Made by a program: the position numbers and the translations under genes. 64,000 nucleotides of DNA from a virus. The notes under the pieces are model-generated. The model searched no databases and was not told where the DNA came from. It saw only the letters and a list, made by a program, of their open reading frames with translations. The stretch lies in the IMG/VR virus record IMGVR_UViG_3300028706_000004; one strand, written 5' to 3'. Position 1 is the stretch's first letter; each line of letters begins with the position of its first letter. Shown in pieces: positions 13,612 through 39,899 of the stretch.

Positions 13612-15612
13612 ATGGCGTGGAACTCTACTAATAACAAATCTATTGACGGATCAGAACAGCGGAAACATGCCGCTGTGGGACCCGGCGCGCCCATAGCCAC
13701 AAACCCGACACTTGCTGGGCAACCTTACTTCGACCCTTGGGATATTGAACGGGCGTACCGAGAAGGCATGCAGAAGGTCACATGGGTGGCCCGCTGTGTG
13801 GATGTGATCGCTGGTAACCAAGCACGCCTTCCGGTTATTCTTCGTGAGGGCAATGCTCCAGATGGAAAACTAGTTACAAGCTCTTCCGTCATGAGGGAAA
13901 GCACAATATTAGATATCTTGAATACTAAATCTAATATTGGTGAAAATTCATTTATATTCAGATATCGGCTTTCAGCCCAACTGCTGATGAGTAGCCGTGG
14001 TGCCTTTATAGAGAAAGTGCGTTCTAGAGACGGAAGAATTATTGGGCTTAATTTGCTTCCCCCTCAACACACCGCACCAGTGCCTCATCCAAAAACATTT
14101 GTGTCTGGTTATGAAGTCGCCATGCCCGACGGAAAGAAAGTACGTCTTAAGCCAGAAGATGTTGTTTGGGTTCGGAGACCACACCCCTTAGATCCCTACC
14201 TGTCGATGACCCCGATGGAGTCTGCGGGCGTTGCTATAGAAATCGAAAACCTTGCGAAGCTATACAACCGCAACTTCCTTCTTAACGATGGCCGACCCGG
14301 GGGCCTATTGGTTCTCCGTGGCGAAATCGACGATGACGACAAGAACGAATTGAGATCACGATTTAGGGGCAATCTCGGTCGCGTTGGTTCAACCACCGTA
14401 GTAGCAGCAGATGACGGGGTTGATTTTGTCGATACCTCATCGAGTCCTCGCGATGCTGCCTACATCCAAATGAGAACCATCACCAAAGAAGAAATCTTTG
14501 CTGCCTTCGGAGTTCCTGAGACCGTTATAGGTAACGCTTCGGGAAGAACGTTCAGTAACGCGGGAGAAGAGATTCGTGTTTTCTGGATGGAGACAATGCT
14601 CCCCCACCTCGAACCAATAGCTCGTGCCTTGGATGAAATTGACCCTATTCATTACATCGACTTCGACACCTCAACGGTTCCCAACCTAATTATTTATAAA
14701 CAAGAACGCGATCGTTACTTGATGGATGAACTCCAGAACGGGTTGATAAGCATCAACGAATATCGTGACATGACAGGCAAAGAGACAGTTAAATCTGACC
14801 TTGCAGATTCATTACTTATGAACCCGAATTTGACGCCTGTCGCAAATACTGAGAAGGAAATGGAGCAGCCCAACGCAATGATGGGCGGGCAACCGGGCAT
14901 GATGCCACCTCAGCCCGGGATGCCAACGCCGGGAGCGGAAGGTCCGCAACCGGGTGAACAACCCCTTGACCCGAACACCATGCAAGGTTCTTTGGCTCAA
15001 GAACAAGAAAGCCCACCGGCTGCTGGACCACCTGCCGAAGCTGCTCCCAATATGGGACAACTCTCGGGTGAACCATTCGACATTGAGACCAAAGAGGACG
15101 ATCTGGGTGTGGACTACGAGCGTTGGACGGGCATTCTCGACCGCAGCTTCGAACGTCTGTTCGAGAGACAGCAACGAGTTATTTTAGAAAAAGCTGCTGG
15201 ACGAAAAGCGCGCACGCTTCTAACCGAAGGCACCTTGGATATCAAAAATATTATGACTCTCGGTACATGGGATCGACAGATGGATGAAGACATCCGACCC
15301 GTTTTGAACTCAATTATTAAAGACTCTCAAGAAAAGCAGTCCAATGAATCTGATGAGTACGAACCGCCATCTGGAGAAGATGTTCAGGTTCAACTGAATG
15401 CTCAAATGGATCGTATTAAATCAATTAATTTAGATACAGAGCAGATTATTAATCAAAAGATCACCACCTGTATGACATTACAGGACGAAGATCGCCGTCA
15501 TGCGGCGGTTAAGGGTGAGCTAGTCAGCGTATTTGCCAGCCTTCTTGCAAAAGCACCAGCGGCTTTGGCTGAGGATGAGGCTCGAAGGGCTTGGGTTTTC
15601 CCAATCAGTTAA
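13612..15612 (+). CDS. HK97-family portal protein with C-terminal Pro/Gly linker and helical extension
   Basis: V.RCV..IA..A.LP, G.SPMES, F.N.GRPGG.L, EEI.AAFGVP, SN, SINEYR. Confidence 0.93.
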   Translation: MAWNSTNNKSIDGSEQRKHAAVGPGAPIATNPTLAGQPYFDPWDIERAYREGMQKVTWVARCVDVIAGNQARLPVILREGNAPDGKLVTSSSVMRESTILDILNTKSNIGENSFIFRYRLSAQLLMSSRGAFIEKVRSRDGRIIGLNLLPPQHTAPVPHPKTFVSGYEVAMPDGKKVRLKPEDVVWVRRPHPLDPYLSMTPMESAGVAIEIENLAKLYNRNFLLNDGRPGGLLVLRGEIDDDDKNELRSRFRGNLGRVGSTTVVAADDGVDFVDTSSSPRDAAYIQMRTITKEEIFAAFGVPETVIGNASGRTFSNAGEEIRVFWMETMLPHLEPIARALDEIDPIHYIDFDTSTVPNLIIYKQERDRYLMDELQNGLISINEYRDMTGKETVKSDLADSLLMNPNLTPVANTEKEMEQPNAMMGGQPGMMPPQPGMPTPGAEGPQPGEQPLDPNTMQGSLAQEQESPPAAGPPAEAAPNMGQLSGEPFDIETKEDDLGVDYERWTGILDRSFERLFERQQRVILEKAAGRKARTLLTEGTLDIKNIMTLGTWDRQMDEDIRPVLNSIIKDSQEKQSNESDEYEPPSGEDVQVQLNAQMDRIKSINLDTEQIINQKITTCMTLQDEDRRHAAVKGELVSVFASLLAKAPAALAEDEARRAWVFPIS

Positions 15613-15710
15613 TTTCCGTAAAATAGTTTACGGAAACTGCAGTTCTTATGCTTGTTACTTACACGGTAGAAGCTTTCTGTCGCTTATTATGTATTGACGG
15701 AGGTTTCAAT

Positions 15711-18700
15711 ATGCCAAACGAACTGCTTGATGACATTCAATTTAAAGCCCGAAACGGCGCTCAGATCAGTGTTGACAATGCCCAAGGGATTGTCGAATGT
15801 TTTGTTTCTGGCATAGGCAACAAAGACAGTGTTGGCGACATCGTTCTTCCCGGCGCCTTCAATGAGAGCCTAAAAAGAAGAAAGCCCAGAGTGGTTTGGG
15901 GACATAGCTGGAACGACCCCATTGGAAAAGTTTTAGAGATCTACGAAGTCGCTAACTCGGACCCACGACTTCCAGAAAAAATGAAGAGTGCTGGAATCGG
16001 CGGTTTGTTTGCAAAAGTCCAGTTCAATCTGGGTGCAGAAAAAGGGCGAGAGGCATTCGCTAACGTCGCCTTCTTCGGAGAAGAACAGGAATGGTCAATC
16101 GGCTATAAGACCCTTCAAGCCACTTTCGATCCGGTCAAGCAGGCCAACTTGCTCAAAGAGGTTGAACTTTATGAAGTAAGCCCTGTGCTGCATGGTGCCA
16201 ACCAACTGACAGGCACGATTTCTGTCAAGGACGGAGAATACGGTGCCTGTGGAATTGGTGGTTGTGAATGTGGGACAAAGAACCACATTGCTTCAGAACC
16301 AGATATTCAGGCAGAAGAAGAGGAAGCTTTCATTTTCGAAAAGGGTCAGATGATGGGACGAGTTCCCATGCAAATGATCGTTATTCCAATGCCTAAGAAA
16401 CCAGATAGCGATTCCCACCACGCCGATAGAGACATTTGGTCTCGTGGTGAGGCTGGTCCCATTGACATGGAAGCTCGCATGGAACTGGCTCAAGAAATTC
16501 ACTCACGAACAAAGGTACCGATCAAGATCGTTGAGGCCACCGAGAACATGGTGGTGTTCCTCCGCAAGATGGTGGATGGGACTAACCGCATGTATCGAAT
16601 GGGATACCACAAGGCCAGCGACGGCAGATACATGTTTGGCAAACCAGCACGAGTTAAACCACAAACGGTTTATTCCCCGGTTCAACCGAACATGCCGCCC
16701 ATCGGCCCAATGAGCCATAAGCCGAATCATCATGTCAGCCCAATTCAGGGAAAAGAAACAACAGAAGAAGCTAAATCTGATTATCTTATTTCCTGCACAT
16801 TGGACAACATGTTTGAGTTCAAAGACATGCTTCAACCAATTTTCGATTATTACAGAGTCACAGTGACCCCTAGTGTCGATGGGCTGTTGTGTAGTGATTA
16901 TCCGTCCGGATTTGAGGACGCAGCAGATACGGCTGTGAAGGCCCTAGGTGGAAGACTGGGGCGAGGTGGTGGCTTGGGAAAAGGCCGTAGGGCTGGGAGA
17001 GCCCTCACCGCAGCGTTCGACCCAAAAGCTTGGGATGGTGATGGCGACGGAATAGTTCAAGAAGGTACGCCTTTCCAGCGTCCATCTATTCCCGGTATCA
17101 ACACAAACTGGCCCGGCGAACCAAAAACCAGAATCAAACCCCCTGATTACCCAGATGACAGTGCCCACGTCAGAGAGGCACGGAAGCCTCGTCGTAATCC
17201 GAATCGAACTCGTCCGGGTAAACGAACTGTCCAGAATCGCAGGGTGGAGCGTGCCGCTGGCATGCGCTCAGAGACTAGGGACCATCGCCTCACGCCGACG
17301 CTCAGAGAGGGAGATTTTCAGATCAGTGAAACCCTCTTGATGCACACTGATACTGAACTAAACAAACGCCCGATACTTCTTGTCGAATTAGCTGACGGAA
17401 CTACCCAGCCGTTCTATATGCGTTCCGGTACAGGTGACGTTCTTCGAGATGCCGACGCTCTCGAATCGGGTGAAGGTGGTAGCCACGGCAATTGGGTTCC
17501 ATTTGACGGTTTTGGCCTCGGGCGAAGAACGGAGTGGTTTAGAAAAGAGAAATACGCTGATTCGGAAGGACCAACTGGTCCCGGAGAGCCTTTGCATCGG
17601 TATGGAAACGAAGAGCTCAAAAAGGTGGGCGAGACGTTAGATGCATCAGAGAATGTGCAAGAGATGCTCAAAGACCGTTCTCGACAAATACCCATGTATC
17701 ACGGTGGGGCTGATGAGCCAGAGGGCTATGTGCCCGGCGACGACTCCACGTTGAAGTACGCAAGAAGTGATGACCTCAACGAAATGTTGGGCCTGCCCTC
17801 ACATGAAGAATATACGAACGAAGTATTTAGCCAGATTGCTGAAGATGAACGAGCGGGCAGTGTGCGATCCAACACTTATAAATATGGTACTCGCAAACCT
17901 ACCGGGCCGAGAGAGGGAACGCCGATACGCGGGGGCCGAGGAGCTACTGCACGCACTGGAGCAGGTCCAGCCGCAGTAAATCCGCGAGGACCCGGTACCC
18001 GAACAGAAAATATTGAATGGGACGCACTGAAGGCGCAGCTTCCATCACAAGCTATTAGAAATATGTCGGTTAAGGAACGTAAAGACCGAATTGAAGATCT
18101 GGATAAAAAACTAGATGTTCTAGAGGCCCAGATGGACGAGGTGGGACGATTCGACGCTGAATATGCTGAGATGAAACAACGTTTCATGCAGTTGGATTCA
18201 GAACGAAGAAAGCATTTGATTTCTGCGGCAATTCATAGTTGGGAAGGTGGACGTAAAAGTTTTGTTCGTTTGCCCGTCGAATCTAAGGGTGTTGAACTTG
18301 AGCTAACGCCAGATGAGATCGATTCACTTCGTTCCCATATAAAAGCACTGATTGGCAAAAGCAAAGACAGCAAAGTAAATGGTGTTTTAGCAAAATATGA
18401 TCAGAAACTTGCTGCCAACAAAGATGGGGTAGTAAAAATCCCTAGAGGGCAATATCACGACTTCACCCATGCGTGGGAGAAAGTTTCGCCGCCTACCCAA
18501 AGTCGAATGCATCCCAAAACAGGTCGCGACATACTCGAATTCGCTGCACTTTCACCAACCCAAAAATTTAGGTCGTCGCAACTCGACCTGCCAGACAATA
18601 AATACAGAGGATTCGGGAATAAGAGAATCAACAATGGTGCTCATCCTGACATAACTCCAGCCAATCAGGCAAAAATGATGGAAGCTATAGGTGCTCCAGA

Positions 18701-20846
18701 GGGTGAACGTCGGGGTCTTTATTTGCCCGGTCGCGACTATTTGATGTTCGCAGACTTAAAAGAACACGGCTCTGCTTCACCCCGACGGTGGGCAATCATG
18801 GAAGGCCAATACACACACGCCACCAAACAGGGGCGTTCGCGAGTAGATCTGCCCCAACTCGCTGGTGAGCCGGTTGTCGAAACGTTAAGGGGTGCCCGTA
18901 GGGCCGACATGGGTGGACCCAATATGAGTAGAGGTGGCCGCACGAGAAGACAATCTCGCAGTGGATCTCAGTCACTTCGAGCTTTCCCGGGGGATACCGA
19001 CGCCCTATTTGACGAACCTACCGGCGAGGACATCATTCCTGATATCAGAGATGTGAGGCCAGAGGATCGGGCGGATATCGACCGCTGGAACGCAATGGAT
19101 GATGCTGCGCTTAGTCGTCTAGGACAACGTCGAGTTGAGAGAATCGCACGACGTTCCGAAGCTCGTCGCGAGGCAGGTCAAGCGGCGGAGCGGCGACAGT
19201 CGAATGATCTTTTGTCCCGATGGGATGAAGCAACCACTGGCACCAGTCTCGACCCTGCGCGTCGTGGCTTGAGGTCGGAGCAGAAAATCCCACAAAGGGC
19301 AACTGCCGACGAAGCTAAACCAGAGACTCGCGGTCGCCCCATGGGGCATGTAATGGAAGATTCACAAGAACGCTTTAAAGGTAAGAAGTTTGAAGAAGTT
19401 AAGCCCGACGATTGGGACGATTTGAGTACTGAAGATAAGTTCGCTCTCCTCAGTGCGGAAATGACTCCAAGTAAGAGCGGGATGAGGCAAATTGACTATG
19501 ACCGTATCTACAATGAATTAGACAAGATTATAGAAAAAAGAGAGCTTCGCAGAGACCGTTCAGAGGGTCGCTTTGAAACGATAGCGGAGCGACGCGCTCG
19601 AAGAGGCGGAGTCATACTCCCAGCTAGTGTTCGCAAGCGTGAAACCGAAGATAGAGAGCCCCAACGAACAACGGCACAAACAGCTAAAACAGAACGTAAA
19701 AAAGTTCTTAATAACTTAGAGTCATCGTTTGCTAATGCTGACAGTAGAGCGACCAACAGTGGGGATGTAGTTCGAAGTGAACACGCAGACATTTGGTCTG
19801 AAGCTTTAGACATAGTTTCAGGGTCGGATGATTTGACCCATTCCCAATTGCGTGCTCTTGATGGATTGTTCGAGAGTTATCTCAGCAGAGAGTCTGGCGA
19901 ACTGTCGCCGGTTGAAGGCGAATTGCGTGCTGCCGCGCTAAGTCGTAAGAGTCATATTGAAGATCTTCTTTCCGACTATGAGGGTGATCGATTTATTTCC
20001 GAAGGAGACACCCCTCAAATTCGAACTCTGGGTGGGGGTAGCGACGACCTAGACATTATGGAACTCAACAACCTCGAACTATTTTCTCCAAGCGGTTTAC
20101 GATCCATTCGACAAAACAGCAGCAAGCTGTCGGGTACATCAACGCGAGAGTATGTAGATGCCAGACGACGACAAGGTTTGCGTTCGCAAGCTCATACATC
20201 CAGAGAAGAAAAGATCGGAGATCTTCGCAACCTTTGGAGTAACGCGCGAGCAACTGGTGACAAAGAAGAAATGGATCGTCTGGAACGCCAATTGCGAGAG
20301 CTTGGAGCTAAACCCAGTAGAGGCAATCCTCGACCACAGTATTCAGCTCCATCACGCAGACTCAACCTCAACCAAAATAATGAAACCAGTACGGGCAACC
20401 GAGGCATGCGATCAGAGCGCGAAGGTCGTGCTCAGATTACGGGCGAAGCCACATGGTTTAAAAAAATCGAAGATTCTCTTCAAAAAGAAATCGATATGGC
20501 TTCACGAGACAAAGATCAGCAAACAGCTGATGCCCTCCGAACCTTGAAACGAACATTGGCTCGTCAAGAATCGGGTAAAACCGGCGACAAGCGCACTAAC
20601 GCTGGTTCGTTGACTGTCACACAGACAGAGATTGACGAGATGCTCGATGCTTTAATGCATGTTTTGGATCGTCAAACTGCGGAAAAGGGGTCTCGAACAG
20701 AGATGTTTGCGGAATTGATTGAAAAGCTTTCTTCTGCAGCTATTTCGACTTTCATATTGAAAGAAACAGAAGCAATTCAAAGCAGAACACGGAAAGCCAC
20801 GAACGAAGCAGGTCGTACAGTCGACATCCCAAATACGGATTTATAA
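15711..20846 (+). CDS. HK97-type prohead protease fused to a ~1540-aa multi-module extension
   Basis: Residues 1-173: GNKDS.GD....GAF, WGH (His), EWSIGY (Ser), LYEVSPV..GAN; GGAGGT RBS; 1711 aa. Confidence 0.9.
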   Translation: MPNELLDDIQFKARNGAQISVDNAQGIVECFVSGIGNKDSVGDIVLPGAFNESLKRRKPRVVWGHSWNDPIGKVLEIYEVANSDPRLPEKMKSAGIGGLFAKVQFNLGAEKGREAFANVAFFGEEQEWSIGYKTLQATFDPVKQANLLKEVELYEVSPVLHGANQLTGTISVKDGEYGACGIGGCECGTKNHIASEPDIQAEEEEAFIFEKGQMMGRVPMQMIVIPMPKKPDSDSHHADRDIWSRGEAGPIDMEARMELAQEIHSRTKVPIKIVEATENMVVFLRKMVDGTNRMYRMGYHKASDGRYMFGKPARVKPQTVYSPVQPNMPPIGPMSHKPNHHVSPIQGKETTEEAKSDYLISCTLDNMFEFKDMLQPIFDYYRVTVTPSVDGLLCSDYPSGFEDAADTAVKALGGRLGRGGGLGKGRRAGRALTAAFDPKAWDGDGDGIVQEGTPFQRPSIPGINTNWPGEPKTRIKPPDYPDDSAHVREARKPRRNPNRTRPGKRTVQNRRVERAAGMRSETRDHRLTPTLREGDFQISETLLMHTDTELNKRPILLVELADGTTQPFYMRSGTGDVLRDADALESGEGGSHGNWVPFDGFGLGRRTEWFRKEKYADSEGPTGPGEPLHRYGNEELKKVGETLDASENVQEMLKDRSRQIPMYHGGADEPEGYVPGDDSTLKYARSDDLNEMLGLPSHEEYTNEVFSQIAEDERAGSVRSNTYKYGTRKPTGPREGTPIRGGRGATARTGAGPAAVNPRGPGTRTENIEWDALKAQLPSQAIRNMSVKERKDRIEDLDKKLDVLEAQMDEVGRFDAEYAEMKQRFMQLDSERRKHLISAAIHSWEGGRKSFVRLPVESKGVELELTPDEIDSLRSHIKALIGKSKDSKVNGVLAKYDQKLAANKDGVVKIPRGQYHDFTHAWEKVSPPTQSRMHPKTGRDILEFAALSPTQKFRSSQLDLPDNKYRGFGNKRINNGAHPDITPANQAKMMEAIGAPEGERRGLYLPGRDYLMFADLKEHGSASPRRWAIMEGQYTHATKQGRSRVDLPQLAGEPVVETLRGARRADMGGPNMSRGGRTRRQSRSGSQSLRAFPGDTDALFDEPTGEDIIPDIRDVRPEDRADIDRWNAMDDAALSRLGQRRVERIARRSEARREAGQAAERRQSNDLLSRWDEATTGTSLDPARRGLRSEQKIPQRATADEAKPETRGRPMGHVMEDSQERFKGKKFEEVKPDDWDDLSTEDKFALLSAEMTPSKSGMRQIDYDRIYNELDKIIEKRELRRDRSEGRFETIAERRARRGGVILPASVRKRETEDREPQRTTAQTAKTERKKVLNNLESSFANADSRATNSGDVVRSEHADIWSEALDIVSGSDDLTHSQLRALDGLFESYLSRESGELSPVEGELRAAALSRKSHIEDLLSDYEGDRFISEGDTPQIRTLGGGSDDLDIMELNNLELFSPSGLRSIRQNSSKLSGTSTREYVDARRRQGLRSQAHTSREEKIGDLRNLWSNARATGDKEEMDRLERQLRELGAKPSRGNPRPQYSAPSRRLNLNQNNETSTGNRGMRSEREGRAQITGEATWFKKIEDSLQKEIDMASRDKDQQTADALRTLKRTLARQESGKTGDKRTNAGSLTVTQTEIDEMLDALMHVLDRQTAEKGSRTEMFAELIEKLSSAAISTFILKETEAIQSRTRKATNEAGRTVDIPNTDL

Positions 20847-20890
20847 GATGATGTCTACTAATACTAATAAGACGCAAGAGGTAGGATACA

Positions 20891-22708: not shown

Positions 22709-22732
22709 GGGCTCCCCGAAAGGTGGGTCCGA

Positions 22733-25700
22733 ATGACCGAGTTCTCTCCAAAAAAAAGAACCTACCTCTCAGCAAGAATTCGCCGTAGTCGGCGAGATTT
22801 AGAAGCTGCTGGGCTGGACTTTCTTGAACGCAGAAACATTCTTGCTGCACAGCCAACCCTTAACGCCCAAATTGTAGTTAAGGCGCTTGATGGCAGCATC
22901 GGAGATTCCCCTGAACAGGAAAAAGATAAGTCCAAAAAACGCACAGCCGGTTCAGGAGTTAAAGAAATAGAGCCCGAGGTTCGTTACGACCCCAAGGGTG
23001 TTCGTGATCCCGGACAAGTTTTCAAACTGCATGTCACTGCTCGTGACCTCAAAACAGGTCAAGATAATTTCGGGTGGATTGATCCGCCTAAAGCAGTGCC
23101 GAAAGAAGAACAGCGCTCCAATATGGCTGACGCTATGCAGTGGCGAGCAACCCGACCTCAGATTCGGATACGGACTTACGATCAGGACCCAAGAACGGGT
23201 CAACCAATCATTGAGACTGAGGAAGAAATTAAGGTCAAAGGTCTCGGCAGAACCCTCAAAGACACCCTTCCGGGCCAAAGCCTTGGGGGACGTGCCGCCA
23301 GCGGCCTTGGTCTCATTGTTGACGCTTTAGGGAAGTTTCGTTGCCCCCCCGGTACCCCAGCAGCCAACCAGTTCACCGACGAGTTCGGCACAAACTGTTT
23401 TTCACCTGTGGAGGTATTACGCGACACAGTCCGGGGTCTTGTCAATAGTCTCAGATCCGGTAGAGGTCGAAGCTGGTCATTACCCGGTCGAGGCGACAGC
23501 GAAGCGGAACAGCTGAGATCCAATATCGCAGAACGGCGCGCAACCGCAGGTAAGGCCGGACAGCTTATTGGTAATACTGCATCGATTGAAGCAGCCTTGA
23601 TTGAACGCAACACCGTTATTCAATCTTTAATGGATCAGTACGGCATCTCGGCTGGAGACGAACTAAACGAGGATATGTGGTCATTGTTGGAAGCGATGAC
23701 CGACGTAGATACCGGTGATTTCCCTGATCTGGAATGGAAGGGATTGTTCACCGGCATGTTCGGAGAAGAACTCTGGGACGACAATCTTACGATGCGTCAA
23801 AATTTGGAAAAGATGCGTGCGACAGTACGCGAAGACGTATTCAGTTTCATGGGTGCACAAACCAAAACGGGCGCACAAGCAATCCGGGATGCGTATAGAG
23901 CCAAAGACCCCACTGCGATGGAAATGGTTGACGGTCTTGTTGGTCGACACGAATCAGCGATGCGAGGCTTCTTAGGTTCGACTCTTCACGAGTTCGGAGA
24001 CGATCCGAGAGCCATGAGCGGTCTCAAAAAGATTTCTTTCCGAGCCTACAACCCAGATTATGACGACTTCCAAAGCTATTGGGGTACCGAAGGGGAATGC
24101 ATTCCCCTCTGGGAAGGTACCGGCACCGGAATGGCTACCAAACTCGAATTCAACGCTACTGCCATTGCCCTGCGACCGTTTCAAGAGGGTGGACTAACTC
24201 ATGAGGGTCCAGATGGTCGACCGAAACTCGTACAGGTTGACGCTGGAGGTACCTTTTCAGCATCAGTAACAGACGCCGAGAAATGGGCGGCAATCGCAGA
24301 CTTTCTTACACATACTGAAAAAATGGAATACTGGCATAAACAATATGCAAATGACCTTACTGCTGCTGCTCACGGCGGAAGTCTCGAAGCCTTTTCCATG
24401 CATGTCGGATACCACGAACTTGCGCACGTTAAACAGTATCAACAGATTGCACAACGTGTGTTGGAAGCTTATGAGCGTGATGGTCAATTCTCGATTTACA
24501 AAAGGGATGGCACTGGACTCGAATCATTAACTGCACATCCTTCTGAATGGACAAACGAACAGTTCGTTATGGCCGTTGTCTCCACATTCCAAGATGCGCT
24601 TCCACCCGGCACCACTACCGACTTTCCCCCGATGGACATGGTCCAATTTGAGGGAAGCATGCTGCATCTTCTCGCAGGACAATATTACCAAGACATGGTT
24701 CAAGGTTTCCTGCAAGCAACCTCTGGTGGTTATGCAGAAGATATTACTCCGGGTCAATATGTGAGTCCTTTGGACGCCAGAGGACTACCTGTTCACAATT
24801 CGGCGAAAGCCCACCTCAACCTGTTGTTTCTAGAGGGAACAGCTGAACTAGCGGCTCTTAAACGAACCGGAGGCATCGCAGGCGACGAACTCAATGAAGT
24901 TCTTGATTGGATGGACGCAGACATAGCAGACGTTGTCTACGGGATTCCAGAGGTTGACGTTCCGTTTAAACCCGGTTCCATTGTTCCCGACACTGACATG
25001 GGTGAAGCGCCTTGGGACACTCCTCTCGAACCGGGCGAAGTTATGACGCCATCAGGCATCATCATTCCAACTAGTGCTGTGAAAAAGATAGAAGCAGCAG
25101 CGGCGAGGAAGAGGCAAGAACGCCAACTAACTACGGAGAAGCGAAAGCTCGAAACTGCTAGACGATTGCGGCATCGAACAGAAATACACAGTTGGGGCAG
25201 CGGCGGGGACGGTGAAATCAAAACTGCGTCCGATGGAACAAAATATGTTTGGATCGGAGCATTAAGTGGTGAGGGCGAATGGCAGGTGCTAATTGACGAC
25301 CTGTTCGACCCAGCAGTTTTGGTGGAGCTCATCGACAACGATATTTTGCCAGCCGTCGGCCCGTTTGAAGCATGGAATGGACAGTGGTTGGGCGGCGCTG
25401 AGGGCGGTATGCGCTCTAGGCGAGAATTGGGCCAATTCGACAACGGACCCAGAGTCGGAAAGTTTTCCGGAGAAACACACGAAGAACCAGACGGCTCAGT
25501 CTGGGAGTTTCGCCCTACTCTTCGGGATCGTCCAGAAAAAGGTGGTTTCTGGCGTGATATGACAGACCCTGCAAACCGACGAGAAATAGCCGAACGCGCC
25601 ACACGCAGACGCCAATTGGAGGCTCAAGAGGGTCGAAGCATGGGACGACTTGCTCGCCCGGGGGCTGGAAGCGAATGGGAAAACATTGTCCGGAGGGGCG

Positions 25701-28700
25701 ATGGCGGGATGCGTTCCACAAGGGCCACTGTGGGACAAAGTTTCACTCCCGAGGAGATCAACGATCACGTGATACTCGACGACCTAGAGCTAGAGCTGGA
25801 CAGATTAGACCAAGCGCCCCCCACCATTTTGGGGCGGTTGCGTCAAAAGTTTGGTGGCCACAAAGGGCTGGAACAACGCAAACAAAGACACCGAGAGAGT
25901 ATTGCAGCCGTTAAGGAAGCATTAGCTGAAGGTAGGTTCGTCGAAAGTCTCGACGATTACATGAACCTTAGCGACAAAGAGAAGCTGAAGTTTTTCCATG
26001 GCAAACCTCTCGTCGTCACCGCTGATCAGACAGAACTTGCAATGAGAATCATTTTAGATAATTACCGCCTTAACCCTGAAGAATCTGATTCCGACAAACT
26101 CATGCACGTCAAGATTGTTCCAACTGATTCAGTTACCGGCGAAGAGATCCAGTCGCTACTGCATAAGGAATTCGCCGAGGCATTGGAAAACGGAATACCT
26201 ATTGCGGAGGCATTGGAAAACGGAAACGACGTTGAAGCACAGCGCCTAATCGCACAGTTGGAAGCTACTAATACCCCATTCATGCTCGGCAAGGAACATT
26301 ATGACTTATGCAAGGTTTCCGTAGCGGGCTCAAACATGTTCTGCTATGACCACGAAGGCATATTACGAAATAGTATGCCTCAGTTCAGTGGTCCTGTCTG
26401 GGATTTCGACACAGAAGAACACCAGAAACAGTATGAGGATGCTCTTACCAAGCTCGCCAACGCAGCCGGTCATGTCGACCCCTCAACGGATGAATATGAA
26501 GACTGGTTCAAGTCCACGGACGGCTGGACCGCTAGACGAGAAGCTCACGAGGAAGTGTTGGATGCAGGGGGCGCGGCGACAAAAGCCGCCACACTCTGGC
26601 ACGACCAGTTCGACGAAAAGGCGAGACAACTTCGGCTGGAAGGTAAACTGTCTGAGGAAGAAATCCTTGAAGAAGCAGCGAAAGCTACCCAGTTCGGAGC
26701 AGATACCACTCGCGAATTAATCGATCGACTGAGGGCAGACGGCGTTCGAGTCGAGGGTGGATTTGGCAAAGCAGATTTGCGGCCCGGCGATGATCTCGAA
26801 ACCGGCACAGAGAACCCAATCAAAAAGGCTTTGTTGCACCTGAAGGCCAGTCAGAACGAACTAATTGGACCTAAGGTGATGAAAGAAGCCCGGAAGGCCA
26901 CCATAAAGCAACCCGATGGGACATATATCAAGAACCCGGATCACTGGCTCTTCAAGGGATTCGAAGGTTCTTCAGATCCGATTTTGGTTACCGATGACGG
27001 ATTCATTCTTGATGGTCATCACCGCTGGGCGATGCTCGTAGCGGTTGCCAGCCTGACGGGAGACGAAGACGAAATCTTGGGCCACAAGAACGTTGTCGTT
27101 GTTCATATGCCAGTCAACGAGGCTCTTGGTTACGGGGTGGCCTTTGCCGACGATATGGGCATGCAGCGGGCACCTGCTGGACCGGATGAAGCTGCCCCAC
27201 ACCCTTCGACGCTTCCAGACGTACCGGGGACATGGGCGAAACGACAGGCTGAGCTTAGAGAACAGAAAAGTTCACTGCCTGAAAGCCCGATCGAAGAACG
27301 TGGAATGCGATCTTCCCGTCGCATGGATGGCGTGTTTGACGAAATTACCCGAGTCGGAAAATTCCATGGAGAGACTCACGAAGAACCAGATGGTTCAATC
27401 TGGGAATTCCGTCCCACTCTTCGAGACAGACCCGAACAAGGCGGGAATTGGATTGATCTTTCTGATCCCAGCATGCGGCGACATATGGCTGACCGTGCAA
27501 GAAGACGACGTATTGAGGAATCTGAGTCCGGCGGAAGCATGGGGCGGCTTGCACGACCGGGAGCCAACAGCGAGTGGGACGACATCACTCGTGGCGGGAT
27601 GCGTTCTCAGCGCAGAGAAATAGAACTGCGAAACATGGAACGTGAAATCCAAACCGCAGTAGGGCGCGAACGGGCTCTCGAAACAGAACTCCTTCAGCTC
27701 CGAGAAGATGAAGATGGTTTCGTTATTACCCGTGAAGAATTTGATAATTCGGTTGCCGAAATATCCGTTGAGCGAGAAGCGTTGAAGGAACGTAAGCGGC
27801 GGCTCCAGCAGCAGCACTCGATCCTTAAGCGTCATCGTGACAGGGGTTCCAGAACGGGCATGCGGTCGATTCGTGTGAGAAAGCAAAGTGACAACCCCGG
27901 CGCAGCAGAAACGATGACCGTCCGCAACGCCGACTTGGCTGAAGCGATTCCGGACTCAGCGTTCTCCGCTCCCAGTGGTTGGGGAAGCAACTATGCAACT
28001 GATCGCACTTCTAGAGCCTTACCGCCGATCCAAAGTCGCAGTAGGGCACTTTCGGATCACAATGAGAAGCTCAACGACTCTTTGGATGATCTAATGCATG
28101 TGCCGACTCTAGAATCTGACCGTTACTCCGAAGATTGGAAATACCTACAGGGACCAAATGGTTCATTTTTGGACATCGACCCAGAGGTTGCTGAGTTTCT
28201 ATCCAACCACGAAAAAGACGAAGTTAGTGAGACTATCGCCAAGGCTGCTGTTCAATTCCACCGAGGATTCGACCGGAGACCAAGAGTCCTGCTCGATTCG
28301 GACGAATTCGAAAACCTATTAGAAACAGGCAGCCACTCAAGGCCAGATATTCCATACGGCGAAAACAGTGTTGCGGATTTACGCATGGATTATGACCTTC
28401 GTAACGGTTTTGACACAAATACCCCGGCGTCTCAGCGACCAATAAGTGGGCACCTGTATCACGCCATGGATGATGACCAGATATCCGAAAGCCTCGATGC
28501 CATTGACGGACCATTAATGGAGCGACTCCCTGACTTCTGGGATTCAGAAGGAACAGCCCCTTGGGGAGATCCAGCAGCAATGGGTGGAGACATCGACATC
28601 GTTCTGCGCCCAGAGGTATCTGATAGAACCCATTACGGAACTGGCGATGCCATGAGTCGTGGAGCTATCCCGACACCAATGAATTCAAACGATGCTGACG

Positions 28701-29338
28701 AAATTCTGGCCGCACACACCCCCCGCTGGAATGGCGGGCAAGAAGACGGCCCCTTCAACAACACCGTGAAAATGCACGACCTGTTAAAAGCGGGAACAAC
28801 TGGAAACTACAGAGACCTCTCCCCCGACGGCGAGCACCATGAAGCACAAATCGCCGGGGGTATCGATATGGACGACATCGAGTTTGTCCGCTACCCGGTC
28901 AACAAGCTCAATTGGCGCAATCTCAAACTCAGTGATGCAGATACAGGGAAAAACGACAAATCCGCAGCGGCTAGGTTGCGCAGCGCAGGATTTAGTGACG
29001 CCGAAATTGGTTACTTCTACGACGCCATAAGCGAAGGACGAGTTACAGGTCTACGAAATGTCAACTGGCTTCGCCAACATCTTGCAGCCAAAAAAGCACA
29101 AGAACGATTCGATCGTCTTGGAGTTGGTGTCAAATTCACAAACCCAGACGGAATAGACCTTATGAATGTTGATTCGTTCATGAGTAATCTTCCGGGAGCT
29201 ATTGCGAGCACAACACCTGCAGATGTTTTGCGCAAACGAATACATCTTGAAATCGCAGAGCGTGCAGCTGAACTACTTCAAGATATTCGGAAAGAAATGA
29301 AGCCAAACCGCAACGCCTCCGCAGGAGTTTTGGTCTGA
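22733..29338 (+). CDS. Giant polyvalent head-module protein (zincin HExxH, ParB-like, DUF3626-like domains, 5 GMRS sites)
   Basis: 2201 aa; HELAH...EGTAE; ILDGHHRW; RPISG...DIVLRPEV..RT..GD...EAQIAGG. Confidence 0.85.
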   Translation: MTEFSPKKRTYLSARIRRSRRDLEAAGLDFLERRNILAAQPTLNAQIVVKALDGSIGDSPEQEKDKSKKRTAGSGVKEIEPEVRYDPKGVRDPGQVFKLHVTARDLKTGQDNFGWIDPPKAVPKEEQRSNMADAMQWRATRPQIRIRTYDQDPRTGQPIIETEEEIKVKGLGRTLKDTLPGQSLGGRAASGLGLIVDALGKFRCPPGTPAANQFTDEFGTNCFSPVEVLRDTVRGLVNSLRSGRGRSWSLPGRGDSEAEQLRSNIAERRATAGKAGQLIGNTASIEAALIERNTVIQSLMDQYGISAGDELNEDMWSLLEAMTDVDTGDFPDLEWKGLFTGMFGEELWDDNLTMRQNLEKMRATVREDVFSFMGAQTKTGAQAIRDAYRAKDPTAMEMVDGLVGRHESAMRGFLGSTLHEFGDDPRAMSGLKKISFRAYNPDYDDFQSYWGTEGECIPLWEGTGTGMATKLEFNATAIALRPFQEGGLTHEGPDGRPKLVQVDAGGTFSASVTDAEKWAAIADFLTHTEKMEYWHKQYANDLTAAAHGGSLEAFSMHVGYHELAHVKQYQQIAQRVLEAYERDGQFSIYKRDGTGLESLTAHPSEWTNEQFVMAVVSTFQDALPPGTTTDFPPMDMVQFEGSMLHLLAGQYYQDMVQGFLQATSGGYAEDITPGQYVSPLDARGLPVHNSAKAHLNLLFLEGTAELAALKRTGGIAGDELNEVLDWMDADIADVVYGIPEVDVPFKPGSIVPDTDMGEAPWDTPLEPGEVMTPSGIIIPTSAVKKIEAAAARKRQERQLTTEKRKLETARRLRHRTEIHSWGSGGDGEIKTASDGTKYVWIGALSGEGEWQVLIDDLFDPAVLVELIDNDILPAVGPFEAWNGQWLGGAEGGMRSRRELGQFDNGPRVGKFSGETHEEPDGSVWEFRPTLRDRPEKGGFWRDMTDPANRREIAERATRRRQLEAQEGRSMGRLARPGAGSEWENIVRRGDGGMRSTRATVGQSFTPEEINDHVILDDLELELDRLDQAPPTILGRLRQKFGGHKGLEQRKQRHRESIAAVKEALAEGRFVESLDDYMNLSDKEKLKFFHGKPLVVTADQTELAMRIILDNYRLNPEESDSDKLMHVKIVPTDSVTGEEIQSLLHKEFAEALENGIPIAEALENGNDVEAQRLIAQLEATNTPFMLGKEHYDLCKVSVAGSNMFCYDHEGILRNSMPQFSGPVWDFDTEEHQKQYEDALTKLANAAGHVDPSTDEYEDWFKSTDGWTARREAHEEVLDAGGAATKAATLWHDQFDEKARQLRLEGKLSEEEILEEAAKATQFGADTTRELIDRLRADGVRVEGGFGKADLRPGDDLETGTENPIKKALLHLKASQNELIGPKVMKEARKATIKQPDGTYIKNPDHWLFKGFEGSSDPILVTDDGFILDGHHRWAMLVAVASLTGDEDEILGHKNVVVVHMPVNEALGYGVAFADDMGMQRAPAGPDEAAPHPSTLPDVPGTWAKRQAELREQKSSLPESPIEERGMRSSRRMDGVFDEITRVGKFHGETHEEPDGSIWEFRPTLRDRPEQGGNWIDLSDPSMRRHMADRARRRRIEESESGGSMGRLARPGANSEWDDITRGGMRSQRREIELRNMEREIQTAVGRERALETELLQLREDEDGFVITREEFDNSVAEISVEREALKERKRRLQQQHSILKRHRDRGSRTGMRSIRVRKQSDNPGAAETMTVRNADLAEAIPDSAFSAPSGWGSNYATDRTSRALPPIQSRSRALSDHNEKLNDSLDDLMHVPTLESDRYSEDWKYLQGPNGSFLDIDPEVAEFLSNHEKDEVSETIAKAAVQFHRGFDRRPRVLLDSDEFENLLETGSHSRPDIPYGENSVADLRMDYDLRNGFDTNTPASQRPISGHLYHAMDDDQISESLDAIDGPLMERLPDFWDSEGTAPWGDPAAMGGDIDIVLRPEVSDRTHYGTGDAMSRGAIPTPMNSNDADEILAAHTPRWNGGQEDGPFNNTVKMHDLLKAGTTGNYRDLSPDGEHHEAQIAGGIDMDDIEFVRYPVNKLNWRNLKLSDADTGKNDKSAAARLRSAGFSDAEIGYFYDAISEGRVTGLRNVNWLRQHLAAKKAQERFDRLGVGVKFTNPDGIDLMNVDSFMSNLPGAIASTTPADVLRKRIHLEIAERAAELLQDIRKEMKPNRNASAGVLV

Positions 29339-32300
29339 TGAAAGCTATACACGTTGCCAATACGGGCGATAGTCGAATTTATTATCTATTGGAATCAGAT
29401 AACGACTCTACCGGTGTAGTGGTCAAACCCGATTCTCCTCCAACATTCGTCAACTTTTTTGCATACGTCTCTAAAAAACCGCGCATACAGCGTCTTATGG
29501 ATTCAGATTTTCATAAATTTCTTTGGACCGGCAACAAGGGAAGTCTAAAACCTCGCTGGGAACACGTCTTTATTGACCGAGTTGCCGAACCGGCTGATTT
29601 ATTGGTTGGCGTAAATGTGATTAGCAAGTTTAAAACAGACGACGGGCCTAGTCGTGTCCGACAAATGGAAGAGAAGGCCAACCGAGCTATCGAATATCGA
29701 TCGCTGATATCCGCAGGGCTCAACGAAAAAGCTTTTGCGAGAAGTGTCGGCAGGATGGCTGGTCGTGCAGCTACGGGAGCCGTCAGAGGTTTCCGTAGAG
29801 GAATTCGGTTTGACAGAAATGCTCATGACGGTGATTTGGATGGCTTTATTCAGGAAGGTACCCAGTGGGCTAGAGCTGCTACGCCGTCAGTACGAACGAA
29901 TCTAACTCCGGATGGTCTTAGGTCAACAAACCAACTACCACGGAAACGGTTCATGAAAGATGAGCCGCCAAATCCCACAACCTTGTTTGACGCTTCACCA
30001 CAAGACCTCTATGTAGCCAAGAATCGTTATTACAGCTGGAAGAAAACAGAAGCAGCCTTGTCTGCCCACCTCACAGGCAACGACCCTGAAGAGCTCTTGC
30101 AAAGTTGGATCGATTTAGAAAATGAATTGAGTGAAGCCTTTCTTGACGGGCGTCCCATACGAACCACTGACGATTTTCGAGAAATTGCAGCTCAACTTCA
30201 CAGCGGATTCGGACCCGGCCTCAATCAAAGAATGACAATTCGTTACAATCAGAATGGTGACCCAATAGGGCGTAAATATGACAATCCGGGGGGCAGCTAT
30301 TTCGACTTGATCACCCCCGATCGGCAAGGCGACGAAGAGTTTTCTCTGTATGAAAAATATACGGCATTAACTGTAATGAGGAATTTAAGAGATAACCCTG
30401 ATCTTCAAAACCACACCTTGGAAATTGCACATGAGGACAATCGAACCCCCGGCAATCCAGTCATTCAAGGACCGCCTGCTATTGCGGGTCAAGCGTCCAG
30501 CAAGCAAGGAAAGAAGTGGAAGGTCAACAAAATAGCTCTACAACTATTGAGAGCTACCACGGGTACACGGGAAGAACGAAACAAACGGTTCTCAGAACGC
30601 CTTGACGAAATGTTCGAAATTGATACAACGCCATCTCGTCACACAAAACCAAGAATCACTATCGGCTTACGCAAAGAAAAAGATCATCCGCAACTACTTG
30701 ACTTTGAGCTCGGCTTAGATGCTGAAGAGAGTTCAAAATGGGGTCACAACACCGCCACTACTGCTCTGATTGCCCTAGCAGCTCACCTTGACGATGTGCC
30801 CGAAGGTGAACAGGCAGCAGTTATCAAACAAGGTAAAGCAATATTTGGAGCCACGATTGCAACACATGAATTCTCTGGACATGGAAGTCATACTGCAAAT
30901 ATTAAATCATTTGCAGACAAAGATTCAGGTGGTGAAGAAAACGCATTAAAACGAGCATATGAACGAATAAAAGATCGTATAGCAAAAAACCCCATCGCTG
31001 ACAAAACCGCGCTAGATCTGGATAGCGAACATATAGATAAAACCAGCACTGGTGGTTATGCCTTGGCCCATGGAGCATATGGCCCAAGGGTGATTCTCGC
31101 CGTGGATAGAGCTGCTGCAGATTTATCAAACCACGGCGATATCCGAGGTGTTCTAAGTGTCGACCCTGACACTATGGGGGTCGGGCAATGGATGCGTTAT
31201 CTCGACATTATGGAAAAGACGGGTTCCAATAGGGCTCAGCGGCTTATTGAATGGATGGGACAACCCATCATGGATGGTGACGGCAACGCATACACAGCCA
31301 CTCCCGGACTCGCCCAGTATTTCAACGCATTAGCAGGTGAGGCTGCCCTTATTTGGCTAGACGTTGACCTAACCATCTCCCCGGGTGAAGAATTAACTCT
31401 TGCACATGTTTTGTACGGGATGTCTCCCAGCTTCTATTTCGGAAAATACCAATTGCTTTCCAGCGAATCCGCTGCCCATGGTGTCACCACATTGACAGAT
31501 CATCGAAAGGGTAAATATCTCAGCTACAAGCCAAGAGACGGAACTGCTACTGGAGAGAACTGGATCAGGGTTGATGACAAAGCACTATTTATACTCGACG
31601 ACGACAATGACATAGGACCGTTAGACGCCGTACCGGATAACGTGTTGGCTCAGGGTGGCTGGTATAAACGTGACAACGGTATCGAGCTACTCGACCAAGG
31701 AGTTTTACCCGCACCTACGGTACTTAGGGAAAGCGGAATACCCGGGTTCAAGTTTCGCGCCACGGACGACAACGCAAGCGTTATACGCGAGTCGGCACGA
31801 GTGTCGCCAGAAGATGTTGCACCGTTACTCGATGCTCATGCAGTAGTTAATCGTATTTTGGCTGATGAAAAATCTTCCATTCCGGTTGCCCCACGTCCTG
31901 TCACCAATGTACAAACTGCTTTCAAAGATCCATTCAACCCTACAGACCTAGAAAGACGTGCTGAAAGAAAGCGATTGAATGATGAAGAAGTAAAAAGGAG
32001 TCAAAACTATTTGGCCAAGCTTCTTAAAGTAAGATTTAATAAAATCAAAGAGTCGAAAAGCGAAGTTAGTTCAACAGGACTACCGGTTACTGAATTCGTT
32101 TCAAGTAAAAGCCCTGAACAGAGAGTCGAACTAAGACAAAAATTAGTTGACCAACTACTTGCTTCTCTCGTCTATGACCACAAGTTCATTGATAGAAGTC
32201 GAATCAATCAAACCCAGAGTTTCGGTGACCCTAGGGGGCAACGTGGCATAGATGTCATGGGAGACCATCGCCTCTTTGAAGAGGGTGGAGCACTCGAAGG

Positions 32301-32661: not shown

Positions 32662-33073
32662 ATGGCTCAAATTCTCTGACAAAATTCCACCTGCTGAATT
32701 TTTCACAAAAAATGCCGAGCGGGGAGAATTGGAAAAACCTTCAATTCAGGATTGGCAAAGCTTGTTAGAACGAGCGCTCGGTTATAAACCAAACCAGTGG
32801 AATGGGATGAGTCATAGTCGTGACGAACTGGTTGGGATTCTTCGTCAATTAGAAGATGGGTCTGATCCACATATTGATAACCGTCGAAACTCTATTGAAG
32901 AACGCATTGAACGTTACGAGCGCAGCAAACAACGGACAAGAGATGAAAGAGATGAGCAGCTAGAGCAGGTTGTCGATGTTGGAAGTTTCTTATTTCCTCC
33001 TTGGCATACGCATAGAGGAAGAATCACTTCATCATTGAATCCTGCAAACTTCGCAGATCCCGGACTGAATTGA
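32654..33073 (+). CDS. Small hypothetical protein coupled to the upstream large gene
   Basis: 139 aa; start overlaps the upstream stop. Confidence 0.65.
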   Translation: MSKWLKFSDKIPPAEFFTKNAERGELEKPSIQDWQSLLERALGYKPNQWNGMSHSRDELVGILRQLEDGSDPHIDNRRNSIEERIERYERSKQRTRDERDEQLEQVVDVGSFLFPPWHTHRGRITSSLNPANFADPGLN

Positions 33074-33099
33074 ACGTAAACTATTATAGGTGACTACAC

Positions 33100-33744: not shown

Positions 33745-33746
33745 AT

Positions 33747-39897: not shown

Positions 39898-39899
39898 CG

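What the first reader, a model, noticed from the sequence alone, without database searches (positions are those of the whole stretch)
15711..20846. Prohead protease fused to ~1,540 aa of cargo
Seen: an intact HK97-type protease domain (His in WGH, Ser in EWSIGY) occupies only residues 1-173 (to about 16229). It is followed by the DGDxDG tag, five GxRS sites and a GSVRS variant (17856). Known: HK97 gp4 is about 225 aa and is necessarily packaged into proheads. Inference: the protease acts as a carrier that guarantees encapsidation of its own cargo.
Basis: partly seen in the sequence, partly recalled or inferred. Interest (0 to 1): 0.72.

Follow-up and report, generated by a model that had tools for sequence, protein, structure and literature searches.

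The report
Head protease hard-wired to cargo polyprotein
An uncultured ~150-kb phage makes its capsid-maturation protease as one 1,711-residue protein whose tail is a string of swappable modules separated by a short Gly-Met/Leu-Arg-Ser motif, most likely so that the protease drags passenger proteins into the capsid and cuts them free; nothing has been shown at the bench.

Summary
ORF 15711-20846 (+) is intact and has a perfect ribosome-binding site. It carries an HK97-type (Pfam S78) protease with invariant His and Ser, the DGDGDG tag, five G[ML]RS sites and one GSVRS variant, all at the stated coordinates. It is not an assembly error: the identical protein is recorded on 47 contigs, and over 120 full-length relatives (950-3,030 aa) exist.

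The carrier idea is supported but needs three corrections.
- The basal protease is about 440 aa, not 173. Cargo-free relatives of 460-712 aa end there.
- The add-on has a fixed order: basic linker, tag, variable cassettes, then conserved modules D and E, with E always at the extreme C terminus. The layout resembles herpesvirus pUL26.
- The tag and the motif also occur in neighbouring giant ORFs that have no protease.

G-hydrophobic-(R/A/S)-S is enriched about 27-fold in this window. It changes version by lineage together with the neighbouring genes, brackets the Pfam domains in relatives, and falls in predicted disordered linkers. In five split relatives the protease ORF ends on an A7-8 run and the tag-cargo ORF continues in the -1 frame, which suggests frameshift-made fusions.

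Cleavage, packaging and ejection are inferred, not shown. The scan has logged the same theme on other DNA. Verdict: a new variant of polyvalent or ejection-protein systems.

The parts
15700..15704 (+). Shine-Dalgarno GGAGG, six bases before the ATG at 15711
   Evidence: it is the only 5-base SD match (GGAGG) before an in-frame ATG in the ORF; three internal ATGs have only 4-base matches
15711..20846 (+). Protease-cargo polyprotein gene, 1,711 aa. The frame is open from 15648, but that upstream ATG is probably not used.
15780..16217 (+). Peptidase S78 (HK97-type prohead protease) catalytic domain. His codon at 15903-15905, Ser codon at 16095-16097.
16248..16976 (+). M region, the conserved remainder of the basal protease protein. 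It has a disordered stretch and two small alpha/beta domains. Cargo-free relatives end here.
16977..17165 (+). Basic Gly/Arg linker plus the tag FDPxAWDGDxDGxVQEGT...RPxIPGxNTNxPG (core 17016-17117). The tag is also present in the ORFs at 29338, 35684 and 39900.
17259..17270 (+). Site 1, GMRS. It separates the protease-M-tag part from the cassettes.
   Evidence: lies in a stretch with pLDDT under 50
17271..18047 (+). Lineage-specific cassette (aa ~542-800), replaced in relative P0004. It contains the GSVRS variant site at 17856-17870.
   Evidence: P0003 has GSLRS at the position orthologous to the GLRS at 19266.
18045..18797 (+). Module C (aa ~800-1050), shared with about 24 of 120 relatives. 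Function unknown.
19266..19277 (+). Site 2, GLRS, just upstream of module D
19320..20072 (+). Module D (aa ~1225-1475). All-helical and includes a four-helix bundle. Shared with about 54 of 120 relatives.
20094..20105 (+). Site 3, GLRS
20175..20186 (+). Site 4, GLRS
20403..20414 (+). Site 5, GMRS, directly before module E. This position is conserved across relatives whichever version of the motif they use.
20406..20843 (+). Module E (aa 1587-1732). A folded alpha/beta domain at the extreme C terminus in 83 of 120 relatives. Candidate capsid- or scaffold-binding end.
13612..15612 (+). Portal protein gene (context)
22733..42641 (+). Block of giant ORFs: 22733-29338, 29338-32661, 35684-39586 and 39900-42641. 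They carry the same G[MLIV]RS motif (5, 1, 5 and 4 copies), and three of them carry the tag.
42864..44198 (+). Major capsid protein (HK97 fold, about 140-aa N-terminal extension, PGSLASKD at aa 134-141), 22 kb downstream of the protease gene

Best explanation
The gene encodes a self-processing, capsid-directed polyprotein, and the fusion is real and hard-wired.

Proposed layout:
- An active HK97-type serine protease with its conserved M region (about 440 aa), which is the basal prohead protease of this phage clade.
- A basic linker and a DGDxDG/IPGxNTNxPG tag.
- Swappable cassettes.
- Two conserved modules, D and E, with E always at the extreme C terminus.

Proposed mechanism (inferred):
1. 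The protein is co-assembled into the prohead through its protease/M part and/or its C-terminal module E. This mirrors herpesvirus pUL26, which joins the capsid through the C terminus of its scaffold part.
2. After shell assembly the protease cuts at the G-(M/L)-R-S linkers. By analogy with Lys|Ser in HK97 and Ala|Ser in herpesviruses, the cut probably falls just before the invariant Ser.
3. This releases fragments of about 27-470 aa.
4. Folded fragments are too large to leave the shell. They stay with the DNA and are probably ejected into the host.

The neighbouring giant ORFs, which have the same motif and mostly the same tag, would be processed by the same protease.

Shown here: the gene structure, the family, the motif statistics, the lineage co-variation, the placement of sites between domains, and the split forms with a slippery run. 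Inferred: packaging, cleavage, the identity of the cutting enzyme, and ejection.
For: Real gene:
- An identical 1,711-aa protein is recorded on 47 contigs, the longest 134 kb. There are 133 hits of 950-3,030 aa, and nearly all listed carry PF04586.
- Synteny is conserved: terminase on the minus strand, then portal, protease fusion, a ~500-aa ORF and giant ORFs.

Architecture:
- Coverage by 120 relatives: aa 26-490 in nearly all, 500-800 unique, 800-1050 in ~24, 1225-1475 in ~54, 1575-1725 in ~83.
- The module order is fixed. E lies 0-11 aa from the C terminus, and in most relatives a motif copy lies 1-10 aa upstream of it.

Motif:
- 20 G[MLIV]RS in the five giant ORFs against 0.73 expected, and none in the other 10,665 aa of the window.
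- Family-wide there are 698 G[MLFIV][RAS]S against 75.5 expected, in lineage-specific versions GMRS, GLAS, GFAS, GFSS and GLSSG.
- Neighbouring ORFs use their own lineage's version.
- Codons at the sites vary synonymously, so selection acts on the peptide.
- Pfam domains of relatives always lie between sites. UvrD at 1253-2022 is bracketed by sites at 1208 and 2047. RNase_T with WYL lies between 2098 and 2539. The HTH and sigma region 4 domains each lie between sites. ArdC-N starts 8 aa after a site.
- All five sites of this protein fall in AlphaFold stretches with pLDDT under 50.

The link to the protease matters:
- Cargo-free proteases of 460-712 aa end after the M region.
- In five of five split loci examined, the protease ORF ends on an A7-8 run (A_AAA_AAA), and the -1 frame runs through it into linker, tag and cargo. 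The cargo ends in module E in the one ORF recovered whole (L089), up to 3,336 codons. The downstream frame has no SD-preceded start, and gene callers missed it or started it late in two loci.

pUL26 architecture: PMC4498786.
Against: - No experimental data of any kind, and no cultured member.
- The major capsid protein has no exact G-hydrophobic-R-S. It has only a GSLAS-like stretch at the expected propeptide border, and that stretch does not track the lineage motif.
- No column of the highly conserved protease domain tracks the R/A/S version of the motif. The cutting enzyme therefore remains unassigned, and the third motif position may simply be tolerated.
- This window's own tail has no Pfam, PDB or Atlas match, so 'cargo' here is by analogy with relatives.
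- Three neighbouring ORFs carry the tag and sites without a protease, so fusion to the protease is not required for whatever the tag does.
- The protease model has only moderate confidence (mean pLDDT 61 for the N-terminal 520 aa).
- If every protease copy carries about 140 kDa of extra protein, the internal protein load would be large.
Confidence: 0.6

Rival explanations
1. The extension is an internal head core or scaffold, not delivered cargo. In this reading the tail, especially helical module D and C-terminal module E, builds or sizes the prohead. It is then chopped at the G[ML]RS sites and expelled or left inert, like T4 gp22 or the scaffold part of herpesvirus pUL26.
For: - D and E are conserved in 54-83 of 120 relatives and always sit at the C terminus.
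- D is an all-helical bundle.
- No enzyme domain is recognisable in this window's tail.
- The N-terminal protease with a C-terminal conserved module preceded by a site copies the pUL26 layout.
Against: - Relatives insert helicases, nucleases, sigma/HTH domains, pentapeptide repeats and ArdC/MPTase at the same place. These make no sense as scaffold.
- Cassettes are swapped between near-identical phages.
- The capsid protein has its own ~140-aa N-terminal extension of the HK97 delta-domain kind.
- The fragments between sites are folded domains too large to escape a closed shell.
Confidence: 0.2
2. The G-hydrophobic-x-S motifs are not cut by the S78 protease. They could be flexible linkers, sites for another enzyme (a host protease, or a co-encoded MPTase in some relatives) or sites of Ser modification. 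The protein would then remain a giant multidomain virion or non-virion protein.
For: - There is no co-variation between protease residues and motif version.
- The capsid protein lacks the exact motif.
- Gly and Ser are typical linker residues.
- A Zeta-toxin-like P-loop kinase lies in a neighbouring ORF.
Against: - A plain linker would not keep an invariant four-residue word with a hydrophobic second position. It would also not change word in step across all co-encoded giant proteins of a lineage.
- The motif is confined to genes of the head module.
- The position before module E is conserved across motif versions.
- Most relatives have no MPTase.
Confidence: 0.15
3. Artefact: a sequencing or assembly error fused separate ORFs.
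For: Some relatives do have the protease and the cargo polyprotein in different frames at a homopolymer run, so indels at that junction change the reading.
Against: - The window has no homopolymer at the junction.
- The identical protein is recorded on 47 contigs.
- P0003 (86% identical over 99% of the query) is colinear with this protein end to end; P0004 is about 90% identical except for one swapped cassette at aa ~540-800.
- The fused architecture recurs in over 100 distinct clusters.
Confidence: 0.02

Closest known systems
Polyvalent proteins of phages and conjugative elements (Iyer, Burroughs, Anand, de Souza, Aravind 2017, PMC5512222)
   Same: - Giant multidomain proteins encoded beside portal and terminase genes.
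- Predicted to be packaged and delivered with the DNA.
- Relatives here carry the paper's own signature domains, ArdC-N and MPTase-PolyVal (PF08401, PF18818), plus helicases and nucleases.
- The paper notes that a minority carry an assemblin-like peptidase presumed to process them.
   Different: [quoted passage not shown] Here it is N-terminal and is the phage's own, and only, prohead protease.
- The paper does not report, in the passages I searched, a repeated lineage-specific four-residue punctuation, a conserved C-terminal module, or frameshift-linked forms.
- This window's own tail has no recognised effector domain.
Herpesvirus pUL26 protease-scaffold polyprotein (PMC4498786)
   Same: - N-terminal assemblin-fold serine protease.
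- Self-cleavage at a release site after the protease and at a maturation site just before the C-terminal end that binds the major capsid protein.
- The same order is seen here: protease, site, ..., site, conserved C-terminal module.
   Different: - No sequence homology outside the protease fold.
- About 660 aa of variable cassettes, and enzymes in relatives, are inserted between protease and C-terminal modules.
- No nested in-frame scaffold gene is evident: no internal in-frame ATG has more than a 4-base SD match.
- The motif is G-hydrophobic-(R/A/S)-S.
T4 internal proteins IPI-III and Alt, and the phiKZ/SPN3US ejection proteins (PMC7411985, PMC9026906)
   Same: Passenger proteins are addressed to the prohead by a propeptide, trimmed by the prohead protease at a short consensus, retained with the DNA and ejected into the host.
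   Different: - Those passengers are separate genes with N-terminal targeting peptides, cut at L/I-x-E or S/A/G-x-E by a T4 gp21-type protease.
- Here the passengers are concatenated and covalently joined to an HK97-type protease, with a different motif.
Gordonia phage DalanDe gp27 (Bendigovirus) and other actinophage protease fusions (PMC7302621)
   Same: - The head genes of these isolates are the nearest cultured relatives: protease 39-42%, capsid 47-48% and portal 39-41% identical.
- DalanDe gp27 is a 1,633-aa 'capsid maturation protease'.
- MuF-protease and protease-scaffold-capsid fusions are known in Microbacterium phages.
   Different: - In gp27 the protease sits at aa ~1121-1305, after about 1,100 aa. 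This is the C-terminal type of arrangement.
- There is no detectable homology outside the protease domain.
- I did not search these isolates for the tag or the motif.
Lambda gpG/gpGT-type programmed -1 frameshifting. This rests on my own knowledge of the system; the system is mentioned in PMC7302621.
   Same: In five split relatives a slippery A_AAA_AAA run at the end of the short ORF would give a minority long fusion product. That would set a fixed ratio of free protease to cargo-bearing protease.
   Different: - The gene pair is different.
- Frameshifting is only inferred from sequence.
- It does not apply to this window, where the fusion is in frame.

Membership tests
Peptidase S78 (HK97-type caudoviral prohead serine protease) | Match to the family profile above the curated threshold | tested here: met
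   PF04586: 43.2 bits against a cut-off of 21, E = 5.8e-11, profile positions 11-152 of 165. PHROG 80: E = 2e-26.
Peptidase S78 (HK97-type caudoviral prohead serine protease) | Catalytic His and Ser conserved | tested here: met
   H65 (WGH) and S129 (EWSIGY), numbered from 15711, are invariant in 33 diverse relatives. They were assigned from motif position and family knowledge, not from a residue-level superposition on a solved S78 enzyme.
Peptidase S78 (HK97-type caudoviral prohead serine protease) | Assemblin/prohead-protease fold | tested here: inconclusive
   VIA-align gives Z 7.8, 117 residues and 3.6 A to T4 gp21 5jbl_A. Foldseek gives only weak herpes protease rows at E 0.2-0.6. The model has moderate confidence.
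Peptidase S78 (HK97-type caudoviral prohead serine protease) | Encoded in the head module after the portal gene, and the only such gene in the genome | tested here: met
   The gene directly follows the portal gene. There is one PF04586 match in the 91-kb contig. The capsid gene lies 22 kb downstream.
Polyvalent proteins (Iyer et al. 2017) | Two to fifteen distinct effector or enzyme domains in one polypeptide | tested here: not met
   For this window's protein, only the protease is recognised by Pfam, even at E up to 1. The feature is met in relatives such as P0093, P0080, P0074 and P0101-P0103.
Polyvalent proteins (Iyer et al. 2017) | Encoded with a portal-terminase packaging module | tested here: met
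Polyvalent proteins (Iyer et al. 2017) | Assemblin-like peptidase, where present, lies at the C terminus | tested here: not met
   The protease is N-terminal in every relative that has it; only P0041 and P0084 of the 120 lack a protease match. The paper's statement was read.
Herpesvirus pUL26-like protease-scaffold polyprotein (analogy in how it works, not homology) | N-terminal protease, an internal release site, and a site just before a conserved C-terminal capsid-binding end | tested here: inconclusive
   The layout is matched. Cleavage and capsid binding cannot be tested here. No homology of module E to any scaffold was found.
T4-type capsid targeting sequence system | A short N-terminal targeting peptide removed at L/I-x-E by a gp21-type protease | tested here: not met
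   The motif here is G-hydrophobic-(R/A/S)-S, the protease is S78, and the passengers are C-terminal to the protease.

The most novel reading that the evidence does not exclude
A large clade of uncultured ~110-160-kb phages, with 411 capsid relatives in IMG/VR alone, loads its capsids with swappable effector modules by tethering a cargo polyprotein to the C terminus of the prohead protease. The tether is either a hard-wired in-frame fusion, as in this window, or a programmed -1 frameshift or transcriptional slip at a conserved A_AAA_AAA run, which would set the dose. The protease then frees the modules at a fast-evolving four-residue site. This would be a general, evolvable protease-as-carrier system for delivering anti-defence and take-over proteins.
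Probability: 0.4. Interest if true: 0.8.

Novelty: new variant of a known kind. Interest (0 to 1): 0.62.

Why it matters
How phages address passenger proteins to the capsid interior is known for only a few model phages: T4, P1, N4 and phiKZ. This family would add a simple and modular solution. The one protein that must enter every prohead serves as the carrier, and its own cutting site serves as the joint between exchangeable modules.

It also gives a ready catalogue of candidate early-acting phage proteins, namely the modules between sites. Most are of unknown function, and some are clearly anti-restriction or transcription factors.

The design could be borrowed for packaging foreign proteins in HK97-fold capsids. 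The frameshift-linked forms offer a direct test of whether covalent linkage to the protease is what matters.

Tried and rejected
- Sequence search of the protease region against PDB chains: no relative found.
- Foldseek PDB and BFVD searches with both models: nothing at E <= 0.001.
- VIA-align wide search. The D/E model gave only generic four-helix bundles. The N-terminal model gave T4 gp21 for the protease, and cystatin/NTF2-like and ferredoxin-like rows (Z 6-7.8) for the two small M-region domains. I treat those as common folds, not as function.
- Pfam at E up to 1 on four tail segments: nothing credible.
- ESM Atlas on aa 790-1100: no usable hit.
- Profile comparison of the relatives' alignment (A2, which spans their full length) with Cantare gp13: only the protease domain aligns, so the tails of the cultured relatives are not detectably homologous.
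- Test for protease residues that track the motif version (R/A/S): none found, and in particular no charge switch.
- Test for the lineage motif at the capsid-protein propeptide border: only a loosely similar stretch (GSLAS, GSLTT, VSLSS) with no clean co-variation.
- DNA-level recombination signal at the sites: rejected, because codons vary freely.
- Nested internal start, as in lambda Nu3 or UL26.5: no convincing SD plus ATG.
- The genome search on the metagenome loci: the records are not held.
- Megablast of 13000-23000 against cultured phages: no match.
Full report
**What is there**

The frame 15648-20846 (+) is open for 1,732 codons.
- GGAGG sits six bases upstream of it.
- The first 21 codons of the longer frame are not conserved.
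- Cantare gp13 and the database cluster identical to this protein (P0002, 1,711 aa) begin at that Met.

Residues are numbered below from 15648; subtract 21 for the real protein.

The gene follows the portal gene (13612-15612) and lies opposite the large terminase gene (12047-13354, minus strand). The window is part of a 91-kb IMG/VR contig judged about 61% complete, with a single S78 protease gene.

**The protease**

- Pfam Peptidase_S78 covers aa 45-190, at 43.2 bits against a cut-off of 21.
- PHROG 80 matches at E = 2e-26.
- The His of WGH and the Ser of EWSIGY are invariant in 33 diverse relatives.
- The AlphaFold model of this part aligns with T4 gp21, with Z 7.8 over 117 residues.
- The nearest cultured relatives are actinophage myoviruses: Gordonia GMA6 and the Bendigovirus phages, and Brevibacterium Cantare. 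Identities are 39-42% for the protease, 47-48% for the capsid protein and 39-41% for the portal.

**The fusion is real and belongs to a large family**

The identical protein is recorded on 47 contigs. There are 133 proteins of 950-3,030 aa that match at E <= 0.001, and nearly all listed carry PF04586. Gene order is conserved in the five loci fetched for long forms of the protein.

Behind the same N terminus, relatives carry recognisable domains:
- sigma-70 region 4 and HTH domains;
- pentapeptide repeats;
- UvrD-type helicases;
- RNase T with WYL;
- ArdC-N with MPTase-PolyVal.

**Anatomy of the tail**

Coverage of the query by 120 relatives is as follows:

| Residues | Relatives covering them |
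|---|---|
| 26-490 | nearly all |
| 500-800 | only the closest two |
| 800-1050 | ~24 |
| 1225-1475 | ~54 |
| 1575-1725 | ~83 |

- The order of parts is fixed: protease, M region, tag, variable part, (C), D, E. E always lies within 11 residues of the C terminus.
- Shorter homologues of 460-712 aa, 76-83% identical in the protease domain and found on contigs of up to 146 kb, end just after the last small domain of the M region. The basal protease of this clade is therefore about 440 aa. The add-on here is about 1,290 aa, not 1,540.
- AlphaFold models give these elements:
  - a protease domain;
  - a disordered stretch;
  - two small alpha/beta domains in the M region;
  - a helical module D;
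  - a well-folded alpha/beta module E with pLDDT around 90.
- No function could be assigned to any tail module of this window.

**The motif**

- G[ML]RS occurs five times in this protein, against 0.19 expected. No shuffle out of 20,000 reached five.
- The same word occurs 15 more times in four neighbouring giant ORFs between the protease and capsid genes. It is absent from the remaining 10,665 aa of the window.
- Codons at the 20 sites vary freely, so the peptide is what is conserved, not the DNA.
- Across the family, G-hydrophobic-(R/A/S)-S occurs 698 times against 75.5 expected. Each lineage has its own version: GMRS/GLRS, GLAS, GFAS, GFSS or GLSSG.
- In two other lineages the neighbouring giant ORFs use their own lineage's version.
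- Sites never fall inside Pfam domains of relatives and often bracket them tightly.
- All five sites here lie in stretches with pLDDT under 50.
- The site just before module E is conserved in position whatever its spelling.
- GSVRS at 17856 is a plausible variant, because P0003 has GSLRS at the position orthologous to the GLRS at 19266.
- P0004 is about 90% identical to this protein except for aa ~540-800, where identity falls to 12-28%. That is a cassette swap beginning at the first site.

**The tag**

The ~50-residue element FDPxAWDGDxDGxVQEGT...RPxIPGxNTNxPG is preceded by a Gly/Arg-rich stretch and lies upstream of the first site. It also occurs in the ORFs at 29338, 35684 and 39900, again upstream of their first sites. 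A shorter form sits at the C terminus of a 120-aa ORF among the tail genes.

Some cargo-rich relatives lack it. It is therefore neither sufficient evidence for an address nor required for fusion.

**Split relatives**

In five of five loci where the protease is a short ORF ending in ...GG(S/L/Q)KK or ...EKKV:
- the ORF ends on a run of seven or eight A (codons xxA AAA AAA);
- the -1 frame is open through that run and continues into the same linker (KALGxKxG...), the tag and a polyprotein of up to 3,336 codons; in the one locus where that ORF is complete (L089) it ends in module E.

In two loci gene callers either missed the downstream frame or started it after the tag. These proteins recur on many independent contigs, for example 13 for P0184 and blocks holding over 24 for P0209. 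Random homopolymer errors are therefore unlikely. A programmed -1 frameshift or transcriptional slippage is the natural reading, but it is untested. I found no paper that describes it.

**Interpretation**

The best reading (confidence 0.6) is a capsid-directed, self-processing polyprotein. Its layout copies herpesvirus pUL26: N-terminal protease, release site, then a site before a C-terminal capsid-binding end (PMC4498786). The difference is that exchangeable cassettes are inserted in the middle. In content it is a variant of the polyvalent proteins of Iyer et al. 2017. That paper records assemblin-like peptidases only at the C termini of such proteins.

Evidence against:
- The capsid protein lacks the exact motif.
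- No protease residue tracks the motif version.
- This protein's own cassettes are of unknown function.
- Nothing has been measured.

The main rivals are a scaffold/core role for the tail (0.2) and motifs that are not S78 cleavage sites (0.15). An assembly artefact is effectively excluded.

**Relation to earlier notes of the scan**

I derived the motif statistics, lineage versions and domain bracketing before opening the notes. The notes show that the motif, the tag and a repeated cassette in this window were logged before. They also show that protease-headed cargo polyproteins have been logged on other genomes.

Noticed in passing
L089:11344-11400, L091:7422-7470, L093:7644-7690, L094:1831-1880, L095:5338-5385: In split relatives the protease ORF ends on an A7-8 run (A_AAA_AAA), and the -1 frame continues into the tag-cargo polyprotein. 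This is a candidate programmed -1 frameshift or transcriptional slippage site that would make a protease-cargo fusion.
   Followed up: partly
window 20891-22708 (+): A 605-aa, extremely acidic (poly-Glu/Asp, Pro/Ala-rich), Cys-motif-bearing ORF follows the protease gene directly. It has no G[ML]RS site, and ORFs of similar size (453-529 aa) with no Pfam hit sit at the same position in other loci; homology among them was not checked. Its C-terminal ~105 aa are homologous to the C terminus of the protease fusion P0106 (35% identity, E = 3e-14). It is possibly a scaffold or an internal acidic protein.
   Followed up: partly
window 39900-42641 (+): A 913-aa giant ORF combines DUF3721 (aa 13-42), the tag, four G[MLIV]RS sites and a Zeta-toxin/AAA_33 P-loop kinase domain (aa 700-830). 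It is a candidate packaged kinase.
   Followed up: no
window 2838-3200 (-): A 120-aa ORF just upstream of the 496-aa minus-strand ORF at 1203-2693 (unannotated) ends in a short form of the tag (...DARDGDGDGLVQDGTEWEREAE). The DGDxDG element is therefore not confined to the giant head-module ORFs.
   Followed up: no
window 15613-15635: A perfect 9-bp inverted repeat, TTCCGTAAA-ATAG-TTTACGGAA, lies directly after the portal stop codon and before the protease gene. It may be a regulatory or terminator-like hairpin.
   Followed up: no
window 20846-42864: About 22 kb, encoding roughly 7,000 aa of mostly giant ORFs, is inserted between the protease and capsid genes. These two genes are adjacent or nearly so in the cultured relatives (Cantare gp13/gp14, DalanDe gp27/gp28).
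   Followed up: partly
window 16400-16650 (aa ~265-340 from 15648): The first small domain of the M region is predicted with pLDDT around 89 as a helix packed on a curved sheet. Its best structural rows are cystatin and NTF2-like folds (Z 6-7.8). That is a curiosity next to a protease, but the fold is common.
   Followed up: no
L005:15988-18963: In the G[LM]SSG lineage, an ArdC-N plus MPTase-PolyVal module is a separate 991-aa ORF right after the protease fusion. In other relatives (P0101-P0103, P0116) the same domains are fused to the protease. Modules therefore move between the protease fusion and its neighbours.
   Followed up: partly
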